Shown piece after piece: positions 4,680-8,623 of a stretch of DNA of 8,623 bases. The number at the start of each line of letters is the position of its first letter. Position 1 is the stretch's first letter. The translations under genes were made by a program, and so were the position numbers. Source of the stretch: a virus (lineage: Duplodnaviria > Heunggongvirae > Uroviricota > Caudoviricetes); IMG/VR virus record IMGVR_UViG_3300029085_000036; one strand, given 5' to 3'. Below the pieces are notes generated by a model that ran no database searches, had not been told where the DNA came from, and saw nothing but the letters and a program-made list of their open reading frames with translations.

Positions 4680-5900
4680 GTGGGAAAAGCACTAAACAAA
4701 CTGAGCGATTCGACGTTAAAAAAATTGGCGGCTGTCCAGGCAGAAAAAGAGCGTTTTTACTCCGACGGGGGCGGGCTGGAGATTAAACACTCAAAGGGCG
4801 GCAAATTAACCTGGTATTTCCGGTACCGAACAGGAGGACGTGAGGTTGCTGCTGAGCGGCTAAAGTTGGGGGCTTATCCTGAATTGTCGCTGAAAGCCGC
4901 AAGGGAAAAACGCACACAGTGCCGGTCATGGCTGGCAGAGGGTAAAAACCCCCGTTATGAGTTGTGCACCACAGTAAAGGAAGCACTAAAACCCGTTACG
5001 GTGAAGGAGGCGATTAACTACTGGCTGGAGGAATACGCGAAGGATAACCGCAAAGACTACATAAAGCTGGTGCAACGTATGGATAAGCACATCATTTGCC
5101 ATATAGGGGCAATTCCCCTTGATAAGTGTGATACAAGGCAGTGGATCGCATGTTTTGACCGTGTACGAAAAAAAGCACCAGTAGCAGCGGGGCACGTCAT
5201 GCAAACCTGCAAACAAGCGCTAAAGTTCTGCCGCAGGAGGCGCTACGCGTTCAGTAATGCCCTGGACGATTTGATCGTCAGCGATGTGGGTAAGAGAGCA
5301 GAAATTCGCGAGAGAGTGCACAGCAACAGCGAATTAAAGGAAATTTTACGCGCTATTGATGGTGATGTGTTCGCGCCTTACTACAGCGCGTTAATGCGCT
5401 TGCTGATTGTGTTCGGGTGCAGAACGGCAGAGGTCAGACTTTCAGAGATCAAAGAATGGGATCTGAAAGAAATGTTGTGGACAGTGCCAAAAGAGCACAG
5501 CAAAACGAAGGTAACGATATTCAGGCCAATACCCGATGGCATTTTGCCGTTCATTCAGAAGCTGGTGGAGCAGAACCGGCATACAGGGTTATTACTCGGA
5601 GAACTGAAAAAAGATACCACGGTAGCGCAATATGGGCGAAATGCGCATAAGCGGCTTAACCAGGAACACTGGACGCTGCATGACTTTCGCCACACGTTTA
5701 CAACGATGCTGAACGATTTAGGTGTCGATCCGCATATCGTGGAGCACATCACAGCGCATCAGATGCCTGGTCAGCAAAAAACCTATAACCATTCACGCTA
5801 TTTACAGGCGAAGCGGGACGCGTTGAATCTGTGGGTTGAGCGTCTCGATGTGCTGGCTGGAAATCATGAAAATATTGTTATGCTGAAGGTGGCTAAATGA
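4680..5900 (+). CDS. int: Tyrosine site-specific integrase, P4-like (406 aa), GTG start
   Basis: GTG at 4680 is the first canonical start after an in-frame stop at 4662-4664, with AAGAGGA 7 nt upstream. N-terminal arm-binding-type region (GGLEIKHSKGGKLTWYFRYR). C-terminal catalytic-type motifs (HDFRHTF, YNHSRY). Sits next to the junction with chromosomal sequence. Confidence 0.9.
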   Translation: MGKALNKLSDSTLKKLAAVQAEKERFYSDGGGLEIKHSKGGKLTWYFRYRTGGREVAAERLKLGAYPELSLKAAREKRTQCRSWLAEGKNPRYELCTTVKEALKPVTVKEAINYWLEEYAKDNRKDYIKLVQRMDKHIICHIGAIPLDKCDTRQWIACFDRVRKKAPVAAGHVMQTCKQALKFCRRRRYAFSNALDDLIVSDVGKRAEIRERVHSNSELKEILRAIDGDVFAPYYSALMRLLIVFGCRTAEVRLSEIKEWDLKEMLWTVPKEHSKTKVTIFRPIPDGILPFIQKLVEQNRHTGLLLGELKKDTTVAQYGRNAHKRLNQEHWTLHDFRHTFTTMLNDLGVDPHIVEHITAHQMPGQQKTYNHSRYLQAKRDALNLWVERLDVLAGNHENIVMLKVAK

Positions 5901-6707: not shown

Positions 6708-6932
6708 ATGAATCAAAATACACAATTTCAATCACTATCAGATCGCGTAATCCGTGAGGATGAATGTCGTAAGTTAACAGGAGTGTGCCGCACTACACGC
6801 TATGAACTGGAGAAAAAAGGATGCTTTCCGTCACGTCTTAATCTGGGCGGTCGTTCTGTAGGTTGGCTGCTGTCCGAGGTTATGGAATGGGTTAAAAGCC
6901 GGGATCGCATTAATTCAGGCAAGGCAGCGTAA
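6708..6932 (+). CDS. alpA: AlpA-family phage regulatory protein / excisionase-like (74 aa)
   Basis: Small ORF with the characteristic AlpA/Vis-type pattern (...CRKLTGVCRTTRYELEKKGCFPSRLNLGGRSVGWLLSEVMEWV...). Lies downstream of int as in P4-like and CP4-57-like elements. Confidence 0.85.
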   Translation: MNQNTQFQSLSDRVIREDECRKLTGVCRTTRYELEKKGCFPSRLNLGGRSVGWLLSEVMEWVKSRDRINSGKAA

Positions 6933-6959: not shown

Positions 6960-6979
6960 GGCGACCGGGGGCGGTCGCC
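6960..6979 (-). terminator. Rho-independent terminator for the minus-strand small-gene pair
   Basis: Stem GGCGACC (6960-6966) / GGTCGCC (6973-6979) with a G-rich loop. On the minus strand it is followed by TTTGTTTTAT. No comparable U-tract on the plus strand. Confidence 0.55.
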
Positions 6980-7043: not shown

Positions 7044-7253
7044 TCAGCCTGGTGGGCGGTTCCTGTTAGCTTTCATTACCCGGGGCTGTTTATTGAGAAA
7101 CTCATCAAGCGCAAATTTTGTAGGCGCTGGTTCTGTATTTGGTGGCATTTGTTTAGCGTGTGTCTTTTCTTTCTGGCGTGCAACAATGCTCTGTAAAAGC
7201 AATCTTCGTTGTTCTGCGAAAATCTCTTCAGTGGATAGGTATTTTTTGCTCAT
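7044..7253 (-). CDS. Hypothetical small basic protein (69 aa)
   Basis: Minus-strand ORF (MSKKYLSTEEIFAEQRRLLLQSIVARQKEK...) directly downstream of the 59-aa gene and followed by the terminator at 6960-6979. Overlaps the implausible 317-aa plus-strand ORF, which I reject. Confidence 0.45.
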   Translation of the reverse strand: MSKKYLSTEEIFAEQRRLLLQSIVARQKEKTHAKQMPPNTEPAPTKFALDEFLNKQPRVMKANRNRPPG

Positions 7254-7310: not shown

Positions 7311-7490
7311 TTATTCTTGCTCTTTAGCCTTGCGTCGCTGGCGGTATTCAACTTCTCGCTTTAATGCTGCTGTTACAAACTGCCCTGTACTTTCACCAGG
7401 CATTTTTACCGCCTCAACATTGTTCATAACTTCATGCGGAACCCTTGCCGCAACTGTTTGTGATTTTGCGTTTACTGCTTTTGTCGCCAT
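7311..7490 (-). CDS. Small 59-aa protein, possibly a ribbon-helix-helix or YlcI/YnfO-like prophage regulator; not in the supplied ORF track
   Basis: Hand-translated from the reverse complement: MATKAVNAKSQTVAARVPHEVMNNVEAVKMPGESTGQFVTAALKREVEYRQRRKAKEQE, with stop TAA at 7311-7313. ATG at 7490 has GAGGGG about 8 nt upstream. Divergent from the early operon across the repeat-bearing control region. Family assignment is from memory. Confidence 0.5.
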   Translation of the reverse strand: MATKAVNAKSQTVAARVPHEVMNNVEAVKMPGESTGQFVTAALKREVEYRQRRKAKEQE

Positions 7491-7540
7491 GTTGTGTACC
7501 CCTCACAAAAAACAAATGCAGTATGCAGGAAAAAAAACAA

Positions 7541-7593
7541 GTGTTCAACACTTGACGTGTTCAACACCTGAGTTTAAATTGGTGTTCAACACC
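7541..7593. promoter_or_regulatory. Three copies of a dyad-symmetric 11-bp motif GTGTTCAACAC (7541-7551, 7557-7567, 7582-7592) in the divergent control region; candidate operators
   Basis: Exact repeats read from the sequence. Each is an inverted repeat GTGTT-C-AACAC. Overlaps promoter-like hexamers TTGACG (7552-7557) and TAAATT (7575-7580) on the plus strand, and TTGAAC/CATACT on the minus strand. Confidence 0.6.
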
Positions 7594-7689
7594 TTGTTGA
7601 TGCAAGGTGCAGAAACGACGAAACCCGGCAGTGCGCTAACACTAACCGGGCTTCTAACCACCAACGATAGCAAGAATATCGAGGTAGCT

Positions 7690-7896
7690 ATGAGAAATCA
7701 TACCACACACCCGCAAGGGCGGGACTCACACAACCTGAATAAATACATCTGGCGTTTTATTGCCCTGAGCACCGCACAACCGCGCGTGATTCACATTGAG
7801 GCCACCAGCGAACAGGAAGCACGCCAGCAATCCCCGGCTGGCTGCGTGATGGTATTTACTGCCCGTATTCGTCAGGGGGTGCGCCATGTGCAATAA
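7690..7896 (+). CDS. Small 68-aa protein, possibly Icd/Kil-like host cell division inhibitor; first gene of the island early operon
   Basis: Internal ATG at 7690 of the long track ORF, with GAGGT 4 nt upstream. Sequence pattern (...WRFIALSTAQPRVIHIEATSEQEARQQSPAGCVMVFTARIRQ) resembles Icd-like proteins of P4-like prophages as I recall them. Stop overlaps the start of the next gene. Confidence 0.45.
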   Translation: MRNHTTHPQGRDSHNLNKYIWRFIALSTAQPRVIHIEATSEQEARQQSPAGCVMVFTARIRQGVRHVQ

Positions 7897-8338
7897 CACC
7901 CGTCCGGACGCAGCCGCCGAAGCAATCAAAACACTGATTGATGCGCTGATTGATATTTCTGTTATCGCGGACAGGGCGCATAAGCACGCCACCAGTGAAA
8001 CAGAATATGCCGGGGCTTTCGTTCCTCACTCACTGGCTGTTATGCAACTTAGTGCTGATATGGCACTGAATGAGGCTAAAGCCATCCTGATTGCTGATTG
8101 TGAAAATGGGGGGGTTATGCGTGATGATCGTTTTAATGCCCTGAAACAGGAATTTCCCGGCGTTCCTGATGATGCGGCTGATGCGCTTTCGTCAATGCCA
8201 GAACTTATTAGAGCGGCTTTTTTCTTACTTTCCACGAGAGAATATAAATCAACGGGGCTTGATGTACTGAATATCGCCGCCGATTATGCTGATTTCGTGA
8301 CAGAGGTTATTTTAAGAAAAACGACGGACGGGGATTAA
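7886..8338 (+). CDS. Hypothetical acidic 150-aa protein of the early operon (possibly the counterpart of P4 orf151)
   Basis: ATG at 7886 with a strong Shine-Dalgarno AGGGGG 6 nt upstream. Overlaps the upstream gene stop by 11 nt. Helical, acidic composition. Confidence 0.6.
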   Translation: MCNNTRPDAAAEAIKTLIDALIDISVIADRAHKHATSETEYAGAFVPHSLAVMQLSADMALNEAKAILIADCENGGVMRDDRFNALKQEFPGVPDDAADALSSMPELIRAAFFLLSTREYKSTGLDVLNIAADYADFVTEVILRKTTDGD

Positions 8339-8578: not shown

Positions 8579-8623
8579 ATGAAACTTAAATATTCTGGCT
8601 TAACTGCCAGTGGCAAAACTCGC
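8579..8623 (+). CDS. 5' end of a gene with an N-terminal Walker A (P-loop) motif; 3' end lies outside the window
   Basis: ATG at 8579 with GGAGA about 10 nt upstream. The 15 visible codons are MKLKYSGLTASGKTR, containing GLTASGKT, which fits GxxxxGK[ST]. Confidence 0.4.
   Translation, partial: MKLKYSGLTASGKTR

What the first reader, a model, noticed from the sequence alone, without database searches (positions are those of the whole stretch)
7500..7690. Divergent control region with three dyad-symmetric GTGTTCAACAC operators overlapping promoter hexamers
Three exact copies of an 11-bp inverted-repeat motif lie between the divergently oriented 59-aa gene and the early operon. They overlap candidate -35/-10 elements on both strands (plus: TTGACG 7552-7557 and TAAATT 7575-7580; minus: TTGAAC and CATACT). 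This is the architecture of a repressor-controlled genetic switch and probably governs island maintenance versus induction. The spacings (16 and 25 bp start to start) suggest cooperative binding on one DNA face for one pair.
Basis: seen in the sequence. Interest (0 to 1): 0.5.

Follow-up and report, generated by a model that had tools for sequence, protein, structure and literature searches.

The report
Repressor switch of a phage satellite
Three identical 11-bp palindromes cover the promoters between a tiny ribbon-helix-helix gene and the main operon of a phage-satellite island; in about 90 related islands they change in step with that protein's predicted DNA-reading residues, which makes it a strong candidate for the repressor not yet identified in Gram-negative PICI satellites.

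Summary
GTGTTCAACAC occurs exactly three times (7541, 7557, 7582) and nowhere else in the window; no shuffle gave any copy. The sites cover the -35, the spacer and the -10/+1 edge of a conserved rightward promoter (TTGACG-17-TAAATT) and the -35 of a weaker leftward promoter.

The divergent 59-aa gene encodes a ribbon-helix-helix (RHH) protein of the YlcI/YnfO family. Across about 90 related loci the promoter layout stays the same, but the repeated dyad exists in at least 8 sequence classes. Each class tracks the protein's N-terminal beta-strand: residue 14 alone carries 94% of the class information. AlpA, the Icd-like protein, integrase and the downstream ORFs do not track it. This points to heteroimmune repressor/operator pairs, and AlpA is not the operator reader.

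The same interval holds a second, unreported layer. A roughly 80-nt antisense RNA on the minus strand (about 7691 to 7608) overlaps the Icd-like ribosome-binding site. It has strong covariation and 104 G·U against 3 A·C cells, and it matches SymR in both search directions.

The module is present in the prototype Gram-negative PICI EcCICFT073, whose literature calls a global repressor "unclear". The mechanism is classical, close to P22 immI or CopG/RNAII. Binding and repression remain untested.

The parts
7311..7490 (-). rhh: 59-aa ribbon-helix-helix protein of the YlcI/YnfO family, the proposed operator-binding repressor
7541..7551 (.). O1: operator dyad GTGTT-C-AACAC (extended dyad 7538-7554). 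It covers the -35 (TTGAAC) of the leftward promoter and abuts the -35 of the rightward promoter.
   Evidence: O1 is invariant in 28 unique intergenic sequences of the same class.
7557..7567 (.). O2: operator dyad that starts at the last base of the -35 TTGACG and fills the spacer of the rightward promoter
   Evidence: A site occupies this same position (offset +5 from the -35) in every operator class. Only the central base varies within the class.
7582..7592 (.). O3: operator dyad (13-bp dyad 7581-7593) immediately after the -10, over the predicted transcription start of the rightward operon
   Evidence: It lies at offset +27 to +31 in all classes. Only the central base varies.
7552..7580 (+). 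P_R: sigma-70 promoter TTGACG-17-TAAATT for the Icd-like/early operon
   Evidence: The promoter scan gives 9 of 12 matches. TTGAC is conserved in essentially all related loci, with a TAnnnT hexamer 17 bp downstream. The -35 is invariant within the class.
7520..7548 (-). P_L: inferred promoter of rhh. The -35 TTGAAC is the reverse complement of 7543-7548, the -10 CATACT is the reverse complement of 7520-7525, and the spacer is 17 bp.
   Evidence: Read from the sequence. It matches 8 of 12, below the scan threshold. The AGTAT(A/G) block is conserved across loci and is overlapped by an extra operator copy in most other classes.
7608..7691 (-). SymR-like cis-antisense RNA of about 80 nt. It has a 5' two-tier hairpin carrying the anti-Shine-Dalgarno CCUC, the motif UGGUUAGA, and a 14-bp terminator hairpin followed by a U-rich tail. 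It is complementary to the leader and ribosome-binding site of the Icd-like gene.
   Evidence: Rfam SymR hit at 7689-7617, 33.4 bits, E 0.0024, below the gathering score of 61. The same hit recurs in 5 relatives. RNAalifold predicts 24 pairs, 15 of them with compensatory changes. 96.7% of cells are paired and 0 of 500 shuffles reach this. There are 104 G·U against 3 A·C cells, and the minus strand is more stable in 29 of 29 sequences. MFE is -36.6 kcal/mol, z -5.3. Model R1 scores 89.7 bits here and 74-85 bits in loci it was not trained on.
7697..7705 (-). Inferred extended -10 promoter of the antisense RNA (TGG-TATGAT on the minus strand), inside codons 3-6 of the Icd-like ORF
   Evidence: Read from the sequence. 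AAT(C/T)ATACCA is conserved in relatives while codon 2 varies, and L001 reads TGGTATAAT. No -35 was found. Not tested.
7590..7612 (.). Dyad or hairpin CACCTTG-N6-CAAGGTG directly after O3, at the 5' end of the P_R transcript. Its role is unknown.
   Evidence: (I4). An inverted repeat is present at this position in most loci, with no strand preference (mean MFE -7.3 on both strands).
7690..7896 (+). First gene of the rightward operon: a 68-aa Icd-like protein. Its Shine-Dalgarno GAGG lies at 7681-7684. Its 3' end overlaps the next ORF (7886-8338) by 11 nt.
   Evidence: NCBIfam NF033153 scores 68.8 bits against a cut-off of 25, and phrog_6196 matches. ORF coordinates.
7044..7253 (-). orf69: small basic protein downstream of rhh in the leftward operon. 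It is an accessory gene and not a universal partner.
   Evidence: No Pfam, NCBIfam or PHROG match. A family with the motif (R/K)FA..F.L..FL follows rhh in about 55 of 96 loci, including EcCICFT073, but is absent from the non-E. coli loci.
6960..6979 (-). Strong intrinsic terminator (GGCGACCG-CCCC-CGGTCGCC followed by TTTGTTTTAT). It probably ends the leftward rhh-orf69 transcript and lies between that transcript and the convergent alpA.
   Evidence: The terminator scan gives 8 pairs, 7 of them G-C.
6708..6932 (+). alpA (PF05930). In published PICI work AlpA is an activator. Here it is convergent with rhh, and its sequence does not co-vary with the operators.
   Evidence: Pfam E 1.1e-15. Mosaic analysis. 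Published role from PMC6092414.

Best explanation
The interval 7500-7690 is the immunity/maintenance switch of a PICI-type phage satellite integrated next to rcnR.

Proposed mechanism:
1. The divergent 59-aa gene encodes a ribbon-helix-helix repressor. Its dimers read the 11-bp dyad GTGTT-N-AACAC with the N-terminal beta-strand, residues 12 and 14 above all.
2. Occupancy of O2 (end of the -35 plus the spacer) and O3 (edge of the -10 plus the start site) occludes RNA polymerase at P_R. This silences the rightward operon, which begins with an Icd-like gene and in full-length relatives continues into the primase/replication and packaging genes.
3. O1 lies over the -35 of the repressor's own weak promoter and gives negative autoregulation.
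4. A second layer sits in the same interval. A constitutive SymR-like antisense RNA of about 80 nt is made from the minus strand. It pairs with the leader and Shine-Dalgarno region of the Icd-like mRNA and blocks translation of transcripts that escape repression.
5. Different islands carry different matched repressor/operator pairs, which makes them heteroimmune.

Shown here: the sites, their promoter overlap, the RHH fold assignment, the protein-operator co-variation, and the structured minus-strand RNA.

Inferred: actual binding, the direction of regulation, autoregulation, the action of the antisense RNA, and how induction (AlpA or a helper-phage factor) overrides the repressor.
For: - **Sites.** Three exact sites, none expected by chance. 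P_R was found independently by the scan.
- **Co-variation.** In 90 loci, 18 combinations of beta-strand and operator show no exception. Examples: KSQT[VIL]AAR with GTGTTnAACAC (n=51), KSKKLEAR with GTGGCTGACAC (n=20), and KSQALKAR or KSQSLKSR with GTGG[GA]CCACAC (n=11). Loci whose proteins begin MTRD or MSDN instead of MATK (L022, L024, L027) have sites ending ...CAG instead of ...CAC and mostly beginning CTG or ATG instead of GTG.
- **All copies change together.** All 2-4 copies within a locus change together while the -35, the -10 and the site positions stay fixed.
- **Most informative residue.** Residue 14 has the highest mutual information with operator class of all 59 positions (0.94 of the class entropy); residue 12 scores 0.63.
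- **Other proteins do not track the class.** RHH proteins with the window's beta-strand but only 60-70% overall identity keep the window's operator, whereas proteins of 47-64% identity with a different strand do not. Identity ranges of AlpA, the Icd-like protein, integrase, orf150 and orf77 overlap completely between the two groups.
- **Within-class conservation.** Operators vary only at the central base, while the spacer at 7568-7574 is hypervariable.
- **Antisense RNA.**
- **Generality.** The same module is in EcCICFT073.
Against: - There is no experimental evidence of binding or repression.
- The repressor gene and the operators are adjacent, so part of the association could reflect co-inheritance. 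The loci are not phylogenetically independent, and there are only 37 unique proteins in 8 classes.
- P_L is a weak match (8 of 12). In this allele it lacks the operator copy that overlaps the leftward -10 in most other classes, so autoregulation here is the least secure step.
- Published work on EcCICFT073 describes AlpA as the activator of the island and reports no repressor (PMC6092414). The switch could therefore be subordinate to AlpA rather than the master control.
- The antisense promoter has no recognisable -35, and the RNA has not been detected experimentally in anything I could search.
Confidence: 0.72

Rival explanations
1. The dyads are read by another island protein and the 59-aa protein is a bystander. 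Candidates are AlpA (an excisionase-type regulator and the known PICI activator) or the Icd-like protein, which PHROGs labels 'transcriptional repressor'.
For: AlpA is the only experimentally supported regulator of Gram-negative PICIs (PMC6092414). phrog_6196 and phrog_1743 are annotated 'transcriptional repressor'. One 1-mismatch copy of the motif lies at the start codon of the alpA-like gene in L001.
Against: AlpA proteins 96-97% identical to the window's occur with GTGTTCAACAC, GTGGCTGACAC and GTGGGCCACAC operators. Icd-like proteins of 90-97% identity likewise occur with all three classes. Identity ranges overlap fully between loci with the same operator and loci with a different one. The single extra 1-mismatch match is about what chance predicts for 19 kb (0.65 expected).
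Confidence: 0.05
2. The leftward pair rhh-orf69 is a type II toxin-antitoxin operon. The RHH protein would be an antitoxin that autoregulates its own promoter through the dyads, with no role in controlling the rightward operon.
Against: The downstream ORF is missing or unrelated in 40% or more of loci, and in all loci outside the E. coli-type islands, yet these keep the RHH protein and the operators. It matches no toxin family and is only 57-75 aa long. The 59-aa RHH protein has no C-terminal toxin-binding domain, only a basic tail. The universally conserved sites sit on the -35, spacer and +1 of the rightward promoter, and in this window no site overlaps the leftward -10.
Confidence: 0.06
3. 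The RHH protein does bind the dyads, but it is not the maintenance repressor. It could be a Cro-like or CopG-like modulator that trims expression during the active cycle, for example to control copy number, while silencing of the island depends on the absence of AlpA.
For: Published data show that AlpA expression alone triggers excision and runaway replication of EcCICFT073 (PMC6092414), an island that carries this module. CopG/RNAII of pMV158 is a precedent for an RHH protein plus an antisense RNA used as a copy-number control (PMC4485353 abstract).
Against: The rhh gene is transcribed divergently from its own promoter, away from the operon it would trim, as for P22 mnt or lambda cI. Cro and CopG, by contrast, are the first genes of the operon they regulate. 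The existence of many matched specificity classes is typical of immunity repressors. Nothing here measures expression state, so this rival is only weakly disfavoured.
Confidence: 0.13
4. The repeats are not operators. They could be iterons of a replication origin, a packaging (pac/cos) site, or recombination-directionality or integrase arm sites.
For: PICIs do carry iteron-type origins and packaging sites, and short repeated motifs are typical of both (general knowledge).
Against: There are only 2-4 copies, each a perfect dyad, at fixed positions relative to the -35 and -10 hexamers of two divergent promoters. The sites do not co-vary with integrase or AlpA. They lie about 2.8 kb from the island end next to rcnR. 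In the full-length relative L001 the motif occurs nowhere else in the island.
Confidence: 0.03

Closest known systems
Bacteriophage P22 immI region (mnt / O-mnt / P-ant / arc / sar RNA / ant), described from my own knowledge of the literature
   Same: A small RHH repressor gene (mnt) is transcribed divergently from the operon it silences, and its operator overlaps the target promoter. A small cis-encoded antisense RNA (sar) blocks translation of a downstream gene in that operon. The function is to maintain the quiescent state.
   Different: No detectable sequence homology (hhalign to Arc gives probability 5%, to Mnt 0.1%). Here there are three single-dyad sites rather than one 17-21-bp tetramer operator. 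There is no second Arc-like RHH protein in the rightward operon. The antisense RNA targets the first gene (Icd-like) rather than ant. The host element is a satellite, not a phage.
Plasmid pMV158 CopG (RHH) plus antisense RNAII control of repB (PMC4485353)
   Same: Two layers act on one replication-related operon: an RHH transcriptional repressor at the promoter, and a small antisense RNA that blocks translation.
   Different: CopG is the first gene of the operon it represses (self-regulated and co-transcribed), whereas here the repressor gene is divergent. That system is plasmid copy-number control rather than island immunity. The sequences are unrelated.
SymR antisense RNA of the SymE/SymR locus (Rfam RF01809)
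   Same: Both are antisense RNAs of about 77-85 nt that start next to the start codon of the target ORF and cover its ribosome-binding site. Both have a 5' hairpin plus a terminator hairpin. Shared sequence blocks are AGyCAUA, UUGUGrUUAG and GUGUUGGCGCAC. The similarity holds in both directions: Rfam SymR hits the island RNAs at 28-40 bits, and the island model hits K-12 symR at 31 bits, E about 1.6e-5.
   Different: The hits fall below the Rfam gathering score (61), so this is not a member by Rfam's criterion. The target is an Icd-like protein, not SymE. The upstream control is an RHH operator array rather than a LexA box (the LexA box is from my knowledge of the SymE literature).
P1/P7 immI (c4 RNA - icd - ant), from my own knowledge, and the C4/isrK/P4-CI immunity RNAs reported in some Gram-negative PICIs (PMC10111431)
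   Same: An Icd-family ORF is the first gene of an early or antirepressor operon, and its translation is shut off by a small RNA. The Icd ORF overlaps the next gene, which suggests coupling.
   Different: C4 and CI RNAs are processed from the sense transcript and act in trans. Here the RNA comes from the opposite strand (104 G·U against 3 A·C cells). No C4 or isrK hit appears in the window at E<=1. The P1 locus has no RHH operator array.
Stl/Rpr master repressors of SaPIs and other Gram-positive PICIs (as summarised in PMC6092414)
   Same: Position and proposed role match: a repressor gene divergent from the replication/packaging operon, just right of int, that keeps the satellite silent until a helper acts.
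   Different: Stl and Rpr are larger and, as I recall, helix-turn-helix proteins of unrelated sequence. Their derepression by helper-phage proteins has been demonstrated. For this RHH protein neither repression nor an inducer is known, and in Gram-negative PICIs AlpA is the documented activator.
YlcI (DLP12) / YnfO (Qin) prophage proteins, NCBIfam NF041551 / DUF3950
   Same: Same curated family by score (59.7 bits against 30). The RHH-like pattern is the same: basic N-terminal strand, R-x-P, and G-x-(S/G) before helix 2.
   Different: K-12 ylcI lies next to nohD and the cos region of a lambdoid prophage. Reading its upstream region, I saw no matching dyad array. Its function is undescribed in the papers searched. 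The satellite subfamily has no tblastn match in 50,697 deposited phage genomes.

Membership tests
Ribbon-helix-helix (Arc/MetJ/CopG) DNA-binding superfamily | Beta-strand followed by two helices (beta-alpha-alpha) in a domain of about 45 residues | tested here: met
Ribbon-helix-helix (Arc/MetJ/CopG) DNA-binding superfamily | G-x-S/T/N turn at the N-terminus of helix 2, and alternating polar and hydrophobic residues in the strand | tested here: met
   G32-E33-S34 is invariant in 33 homologues. Positions 13, 15 and 17 are hydrophobic or small, and positions 12 and 14 are polar and variable. The register matches Arc residues 6-28.
Ribbon-helix-helix (Arc/MetJ/CopG) DNA-binding superfamily | Obligate dimer whose paired beta-strands insert into the major groove of a (pseudo)symmetric site | not testable with these tools
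   Only a monomer could be modelled. Indirect support: the sites are perfect dyads, the central base is free to vary, and strand residues 12 and 14 predict operator class.
YlcI/YnfO family (NCBIfam NF041551) | Whole-protein score at or above the curated cut-off of 30 bits | tested here: met
   59.7 bits, E 2.1e-16, covering residues 9-50 and the full 42-position profile.
Repressor/operator immunity switch (lambdoid or P22-immI type) | Repeated operator sites that overlap the -35/-10 of divergent promoters between the repressor gene and the target operon | tested here: met
   The positions are conserved across about 90 loci.
Repressor/operator immunity switch (lambdoid or P22-immI type) | Matched variation of repressor recognition residues and operator sequence between heteroimmune elements | tested here: met
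   18 strand/operator combinations with no exception, while the other island proteins are uncorrelated.
Repressor/operator immunity switch (lambdoid or P22-immI type) | Demonstrated binding and repression, and immunity to a superinfecting element of the same type | not testable with these tools
   This needs EMSA or footprinting, reporter assays and transfer assays.
SymR antitoxin RNA (Rfam RF01809) | Score at or above the gathering threshold of 61 bits | tested here: not met
   33.4 bits in the window and 28-40 bits in five relatives. I therefore call it SymR-like and not a member.
SymR antitoxin RNA (Rfam RF01809) | Cis-antisense RNA that starts next to the target start codon, covers the ribosome-binding site, and has two hairpins ending in a terminator | tested here: met
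   The hit starts at 7689, next to the ATG at 7690. The structure is supported by covariation. A reciprocal model hits K-12 symR. Transcription itself is not tested.
C4 / isrK / P4-CI immunity RNAs | Match to Rfam C4 or isrK models on the sense strand of the leader | tested here: not met
   No such hit at E<=1 in the window or in 11 related loci. Strand asymmetry favours the minus strand.
Gram-negative phage-inducible chromosomal island (PICI / cf-PICI) | Integrase followed by alpA at one end of the element | tested here: met
   int lies at 4680-5900 (PF00589, PF13356) and alpA at 6708-6932 (PF05930).
Gram-negative phage-inducible chromosomal island (PICI / cf-PICI) | Primase/replication module and packaging or capsid genes downstream, no lysis or tail genes, total size about 10-18 kb | tested here: inconclusive
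   The window ends at 8623, before these genes. Relatives sharing the switch do have them: L001 has primase, SSB, HK97 capsid, portal and terminase, and EcCICFT073 has primase, SSB, capsid and decoration protein.
Gram-negative phage-inducible chromosomal island (PICI / cf-PICI) | Induction and transfer by a helper phage | not testable with these tools
   Shown experimentally for EcCICFT073 (PMC6092414), which carries a different specificity class of the same module.
Type II toxin-antitoxin operon with RHH antitoxin | Conserved toxin gene co-transcribed with the antitoxin, and an antitoxin C-terminal toxin-binding region | tested here: not met
   The downstream small ORF is absent or unrelated in many loci and matches no toxin family. 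The protein ends in a short basic tail.

The most novel reading that the evidence does not exclude
This RHH/operator pair, together with its SymR-like antisense RNA, is the maintenance and immunity system not yet identified in Gram-negative PICI and cf-PICI satellites, including the prototype EcCICFT073. It would exist in at least eight heteroimmune specificities that are shuffled independently of integrase, AlpA and the replication genes. It would also be the point at which helper phages, directly or through AlpA, trigger satellite induction. A corollary is that the chromosomal SymR regulator shares ancestry with this satellite antisense RNA.
Probability: 0.4. Interest if true: 0.75.

Novelty: new variant of a known kind. 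Interest (0 to 1): 0.6.

Why it matters
Gram-negative PICIs are widespread satellites; this immunity type alone is in 487 of 5426 complete E. coli genomes. They move virulence and defence genes between strains. The founding paper states that a global repressor in these elements is "unclear" and that only the activator AlpA is known (PMC6092414).

A small, recently annotated RHH gene with matched operators, present in the prototype EcCICFT073, gives a concrete and testable candidate for three open questions: how the islands are kept silent, what a helper phage has to overcome, and why co-resident islands may or may not cross-regulate.

The natural set of matched protein/operator pairs (residues 12 and 14 against the dyad core) is also a ready-made specificity code for an 11-bp RHH site. 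The antisense RNA adds a second control point that annotation pipelines miss.

Tried and rejected
- Pfam found no RHH family for the 59-aa protein; the only match was a spurious Med10 hit.
- A profile search of PDB sequences found nothing relevant.
- Foldseek against the PDB gave only non-significant hits.
- hhalign against Arc and Mnt from remembered sequences gave the right register but low probability. I use it only to map positions.
- tblastn of the RHH protein against 50,697 phage records found no match.
- Searches for YlcI/YnfO/DUF3950, for a PICI repressor, for cf-PICI plus RHH or master repressor, for Icd-like plus satellite, and for EcCICFT073 found no description of this module. One of these was badly posed and mostly returned irrelevant papers.
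- I first considered the leader hairpin to be a sense-strand C4/CI-like immunity RNA or a terminator. I rejected this because Rfam gives no C4 or isrK hit and because the G·U/A·C asymmetry points to the minus strand.
- I tested whether the dyad after O3 (7590-7612) is an RNA hairpin of one strand. There is no strand preference, so it is left unexplained.
- The helical-phasing argument was rejected: spacing varies from 22 to 26 bp among relatives.
- K-12 ylcI was checked as a possible characterised relative. It lies at cos/nohD without such operators.
- My first anchor regexes for the leader mis-registered several loci, and I re-anchored them. L011 was dropped from alignment A2 for that reason.
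Full report
**1. Observation**

The motif GTGTTCAACAC occurs exactly at 7541, 7557 and 7582. With the central base left free and no mismatch allowed, these are the only matches in 8.6 kb, and no copy appeared in 200 shuffles. Each site is a 5+1+5 dyad. O1 extends to 17 bp (7538-7554) and O3 to 13 bp (7581-7593).

The consensus scan independently reports a plus-strand promoter, TTGACG (7552-7557), 17 bp, TAAATT (7575-7580). O1 therefore ends just before the -35, O2 starts at the last base of the -35 and fills the spacer, and O3 starts 2 bp after the -10 and covers the expected start site.

They match only 8 of 12 positions, so the scan did not list them.

**2. Context**

The left half of the window is E. 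coli-type chromosome: fimbrial usher and adhesin genes, then an ORF rich in His-Asp repeats and two small ORFs. I take these to be rcnA, rcnB and rcnR from their sequence and order; I did not run a family search on them. An island follows:

- integrase, 4680-5900 (+)
- a 239-aa ORF
- AlpA, 6708-6932 (+)
- two minus-strand genes, orf69 at 7044-7253 and the 59-aa gene at 7311-7490
- the intergenic region in question
- a rightward set of overlapping small ORFs that starts with a 68-aa Icd-like protein at 7690-7896

A relative in E. coli E200139 continues rightward into a DUF4222 gene, primase, SSB, HK97 capsid, protease, portal, HNH and terminase. That is a capsid-forming PICI layout.

**3. The 59-aa protein is a ribbon-helix-helix protein**

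- It passes the curated YlcI/YnfO model (59.7 bits against a cut-off of 30).
- Its 33-sequence alignment shows an invariant K9-S10, R16, P18-H19 and G32-E33-S34. Positions 13, 15 and 17 are hydrophobic, and positions 11-15 are variable.
- AlphaFold gives a disordered N-terminus and two confident helices, as expected for an RHH monomer whose strand forms only in the dimer.
- hhalign places residues 9-31 in register with Arc 6-28, with low probability, so I use it only for mapping. As I recall the published Arc-operator structure, Arc contacts DNA with Q9, N11 and R13; on that basis the window's T12, A14 and R16 take those positions.
- Among 22 alleles of the window's class, 161 codon differences from the window are synonymous and 17 are nonsynonymous, so the gene is under purifying selection.

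**4. Comparative test**

I fetched 31 loci from species-representative genomes (Edwardsiella, Pectobacterium, Kosakonia, Yokenella, Serratia, Xenorhabdus, Proteus, Klebsiella and others) and 80 from IMG/VR.

In every locus with an intact intergenic region the layout is the same:

- an RHH gene on one side
- a conserved AGTAT(A/G) block (the reverse complement of a TATACT-type -10), usually overlapped by one site
- an A-rich spacer
- TTGAC followed at once by a site
- a TAnnnT hexamer 17 bp later, followed by another site

The repeated sequence itself, however, differs between loci, and all copies within a locus differ together. It tracks the protein's beta-strand with no exception in 90 loci and 18 combinations:

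| Beta-strand | Operator | Loci |
|---|---|---|
| KSQT[VIL]AAR | GTGTT[CT]AACAC | 51 |
| KSKKLEAR | GTGGCTGACAC | 20 |
| KSQALKAR / KSQSLKSR | GTGG[GA]CCACAC | 11 |
| KSKRFDVR, KSQKTSVR, KSKKIDVR | GTGTC(C/T)nnCAC | 3 |
| KSQK[LV]Q[AT]R | GTGGA[GA]TCCAC | 2 tabulated; L009 (V) seen only |
| KSQKMSAR | (C/A/G)TGGGTGCCAG | 2 |
| KSQKIQAR | CTGGAATCCAG | 1 |

A Klebsiella locus with strand KSAQKKIR has sites of the form GTGGGGGTGCAC. The three loci whose proteins begin MTRD or MSDN instead of MATK (L022, L024, L027) have sites that end ...CAG instead of ...CAC and mostly begin CTG or ATG instead of GTG.

Of all 59 alignment positions, residue 14 is the best predictor of operator class (mutual information 0.94 of the class entropy). 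Residue 12 scores 0.63.

Overall RHH identity is not what matters. Proteins only 60-70% identical to the window's, but with the same strand, keep GTGTTCAACAC. Proteins 47-64% identical with another strand do not.

The islands are mosaics:

- An RHH protein 100% identical to the window's is found with integrases of 19-97% identity and AlpA proteins of 30-97% identity.
- AlpA proteins of 96-97% identity and Icd-like proteins of 90-97% identity are found with three different operator classes.
- Identity ranges for AlpA, Icd-like, int, orf150 and orf77 overlap completely between loci with the same operator and loci with a different one.

Within the window's class (28 distinct intergenic sequences), the operators vary only at the central base (O2: T in 25, C in 3; O3: C in 25, T in 1, A in 2). 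The -35 is invariant, and the spacer at 7568-7574 is hypervariable.

This is the pattern expected for dyad half-sites read by a symmetric dimer whose specificity residues lie in the strand. Physical linkage of gene and sites means that co-inheritance contributes to the association. Co-inheritance does not explain three things: the concerted change of all copies, the restriction of variation to the central base, or the concentration of information at residue 14.

**5. A second layer in the same interval**

Rfam gives one hit in the window: SymR, on the minus strand at 7689-7617, with 33.4 bits, below the gathering score of 61. The same sub-threshold hit recurs at the homologous place and strand in five relatives, at 28-40 bits.

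An alignment of 29 non-redundant sequences in minus-strand orientation (A2) gives the following:

- A consensus of 24 pairs, 15 of them with compensatory changes.
- 96.7% of cells paired, against 85.5% in shuffles; 0 of 500 shuffles reach the observed value on any measure, and slid controls give 36-46%.
- 104 G·U cells against 3 A·C cells, so the structure is 96.7% paired as a minus-strand RNA but only 82% paired as a plus-strand RNA.
- The minus strand is the more stable strand in 29 of 29 sequences, with mean MFE -35.2 against -22.7 kcal/mol.

The window's RNA folds at -36.6 kcal/mol with z -5.3.

A covariance model built from A2 scores 74-85 bits in loci it was not trained on, including EcCICFT073. 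It also hits the annotated symR of E. coli K-12, full length and on the right strand, at 31 bits with E about 1.6e-5 (the E-value is rough). The aligned sequences share the blocks AGyCAUA, UUGUGrUUAG and GUGUUGGCGCAC.

The RNA would start at about 7689-7691, next to the Icd-like ATG at 7690. It would run across the Shine-Dalgarno sequence (GAGG, 7681-7684) and end after a 14-bp hairpin with a U-rich tail near 7610. A TGG-TATGAT extended -10 lies at 7705-7697 on the minus strand. This block is conserved in relatives while the adjacent codon 2 varies. The promoter is inferred, not tested.

**6. Link to the literature**

The prototype Gram-negative PICI, EcCICFT073, carries the same module between its alpA-type gene and its primase operon:

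- a YlcI/YnfO gene (strand KSQALKAR)
- a 57-aa downstream gene
- operators GTGGGCCACAC (two copies) on the rightward promoter and GTGGGGGACAG over the leftward -10
- the SymR-like RNA
- an Icd-like first gene

These small genes carry late RefSeq locus tags (C_RS30120, C_RS30125, C_RS30800).

[quoted passage not shown] It also reports that AlpA, induced by the helper phage, activates the island (PMC6092414). Later papers that I could search do not describe this repressor. One paper notes C4/isrK-type immunity RNAs in some PICIs (PMC10111431). No paper was found on YlcI/YnfO function. The library does not cover most subscription journals, so prior description cannot be excluded.

**7. Most likely mechanism**

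Shown:
- the sites and their overlap with the promoters
- the RHH assignment
- matched variation of protein and operator
- a structured minus-strand RNA over the Icd-like ribosome-binding site

Inferred:
- RHH dimers bind each dyad. O2 and O3 occlude RNA polymerase at P_R and silence the Icd-like/replication operon.
- O1 over the -35 of P_L gives autoregulation. This is the least secure step, because this class lacks the site over the leftward -10 that most other classes have.
- The antisense RNA blocks translation of leaky transcripts. Because the Icd-like ORF overlaps the next ORF by 11 nt (7886-7896), this probably lowers downstream expression too, as is known for P1 icd-ant (my own knowledge).
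- Induction must override the RHH protein, through AlpA or a helper-encoded factor. Nothing here shows which.

**8. Rivals**

- *A type II toxin-antitoxin operon (rhh-orf69).* Weak. The second gene is not universal, matches no toxin family, and the conserved sites sit on the other promoter.
- *A Cro- or CopG-like trimming role rather than maintenance.* Cannot be excluded without expression data. It is the main residual uncertainty.
- *Iterons, packaging sites or recombination sites.* These do not fit the promoter-locked positions or the lack of co-variation with integrase and AlpA, and the motif is absent elsewhere in a full island.

**9. Comparison with known systems**

The closest analogues in function are listed below.

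- **P22 immI:** a divergent RHH Mnt repressor, an operator over P-ant, and the sar antisense RNA.
- **pMV158 CopG plus RNAII.**
- **SymR:** the RNA layer is SymR-like.
- **P1 immI:** the target gene is Icd-like, as in P1 immI.
- **Stl/Rpr:** the position and proposed role correspond to Stl/Rpr of Gram-positive PICIs.

Membership is met for the RHH superfamily and for NCBIfam YlcI/YnfO. It is not met for Rfam SymR (below threshold), for the C4/isrK RNAs, or for type II toxin-antitoxin systems. There is no detectable homology to Mnt or Arc.

**10. Verdict**

The mechanism is a classical one, so it is not categorically new. The family, its set of matched specificities, the coupled SymR-like antisense RNA, and its presence in EcCICFT073 (where no repressor has been reported) make it a worthwhile and directly testable lead. 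This immunity type alone occurs in 487 of 5426 complete E. coli genomes.

Noticed in passing
window 7608-7691 (minus strand); L116 3828-3921: The structured antisense RNA over the Icd-like ribosome-binding site resembles SymR in both search directions. Rfam SymR hits the island RNAs at 28-40 bits. A model built only from island RNAs hits K-12 symR at 31 bits, and the two share sequence blocks. This suggests common ancestry between the chromosomal SymR regulator and the satellite RNA.
   Followed up: yes
L114 22931-33655 (E. coli CFT073, NC_004431.1 1377930-1388654): The prototype PICI EcCICFT073 carries the same RHH/operator/antisense/Icd-like module in a different specificity class (KSQALKAR with GTGGGCCACAC). 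The small genes have late RefSeq locus tags (C_RS30120, C_RS30125, C_RS30800), which may explain why they do not appear in the published maps.
   Followed up: yes
window 7590-7612: An inverted repeat, CACCTTG-N6-CAAGGTG, begins inside the right half of O3. An equivalent dyad follows the last operator in most related loci but shows no strand preference. It could be a 5' mRNA hairpin or a binding site for another protein.
   Followed up: partly
window 7044-7253 (minus); L114 25243-25416: The small basic ORF downstream of rhh belongs to an unannotated family of 57-75 aa with a motif like RFAPCAFALEQFLKEY or KFALDEFLNK. It is found after rhh in about 55 of 96 loci across several operator classes, but not outside the E. 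coli-type islands. Its function is unknown.
   Followed up: partly
L003 5853-5921, L005 5893-5961, L007 5966-6038, L022 5519-5587: The Rfam int-alpA RNA motif (RF02996) scores above its gathering threshold in four related islands. It is not detected in the window, where a 239-aa ORF lies between int and alpA.
   Followed up: no
window 7886-7896: The Icd-like ORF overlaps the next ORF (150 aa, phrog_2512, unknown function) by 11 nt. This suggests translational coupling, so the antisense RNA could control more than the first gene.
   Followed up: no
window 6960-6979: A strong G+C-rich hairpin with a T-run on the minus strand lies between the convergent alpA and orf69. It is probably the terminator of the leftward transcript and possibly works in both directions.
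   Followed up: no
L002 3001-3174 (Edwardsiella hoshinae NBRC 105699): An RHH protein identical to the window's over 58 residues, with the same operators and leader, occurs in Edwardsiella. The window's flanks look like E. coli chromosome, so this immunity module occurs in at least two genera.
   Followed up: partly
L001 8282-8292: A single 1-mismatch copy of the operator (GTGCTTAACAC, minus strand) overlaps the start codon of the alpA-like gene in a full-length relative. About 0.65 such matches are expected by chance in that locus, so it is probably chance.
   Followed up: no
L115 6252-6446 (E. coli K-12 ylcI, DLP12): The family's namesake, YlcI, has the same RHH-like pattern but lies divergent from nohD next to the cos region of a lambdoid prophage. 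Reading its upstream region, I saw no dyad array of this kind. Its role there, possibly related to packaging, is undescribed.
   Followed up: partly
window 7557-7567 compared with relatives (L001, L033-L077): In 25 of 28 distinct intergenic sequences of this class, O2 reads GTGTTTAACAC. The window carries the rarer C variant, which is why its three sites are identical.
   Followed up: yes
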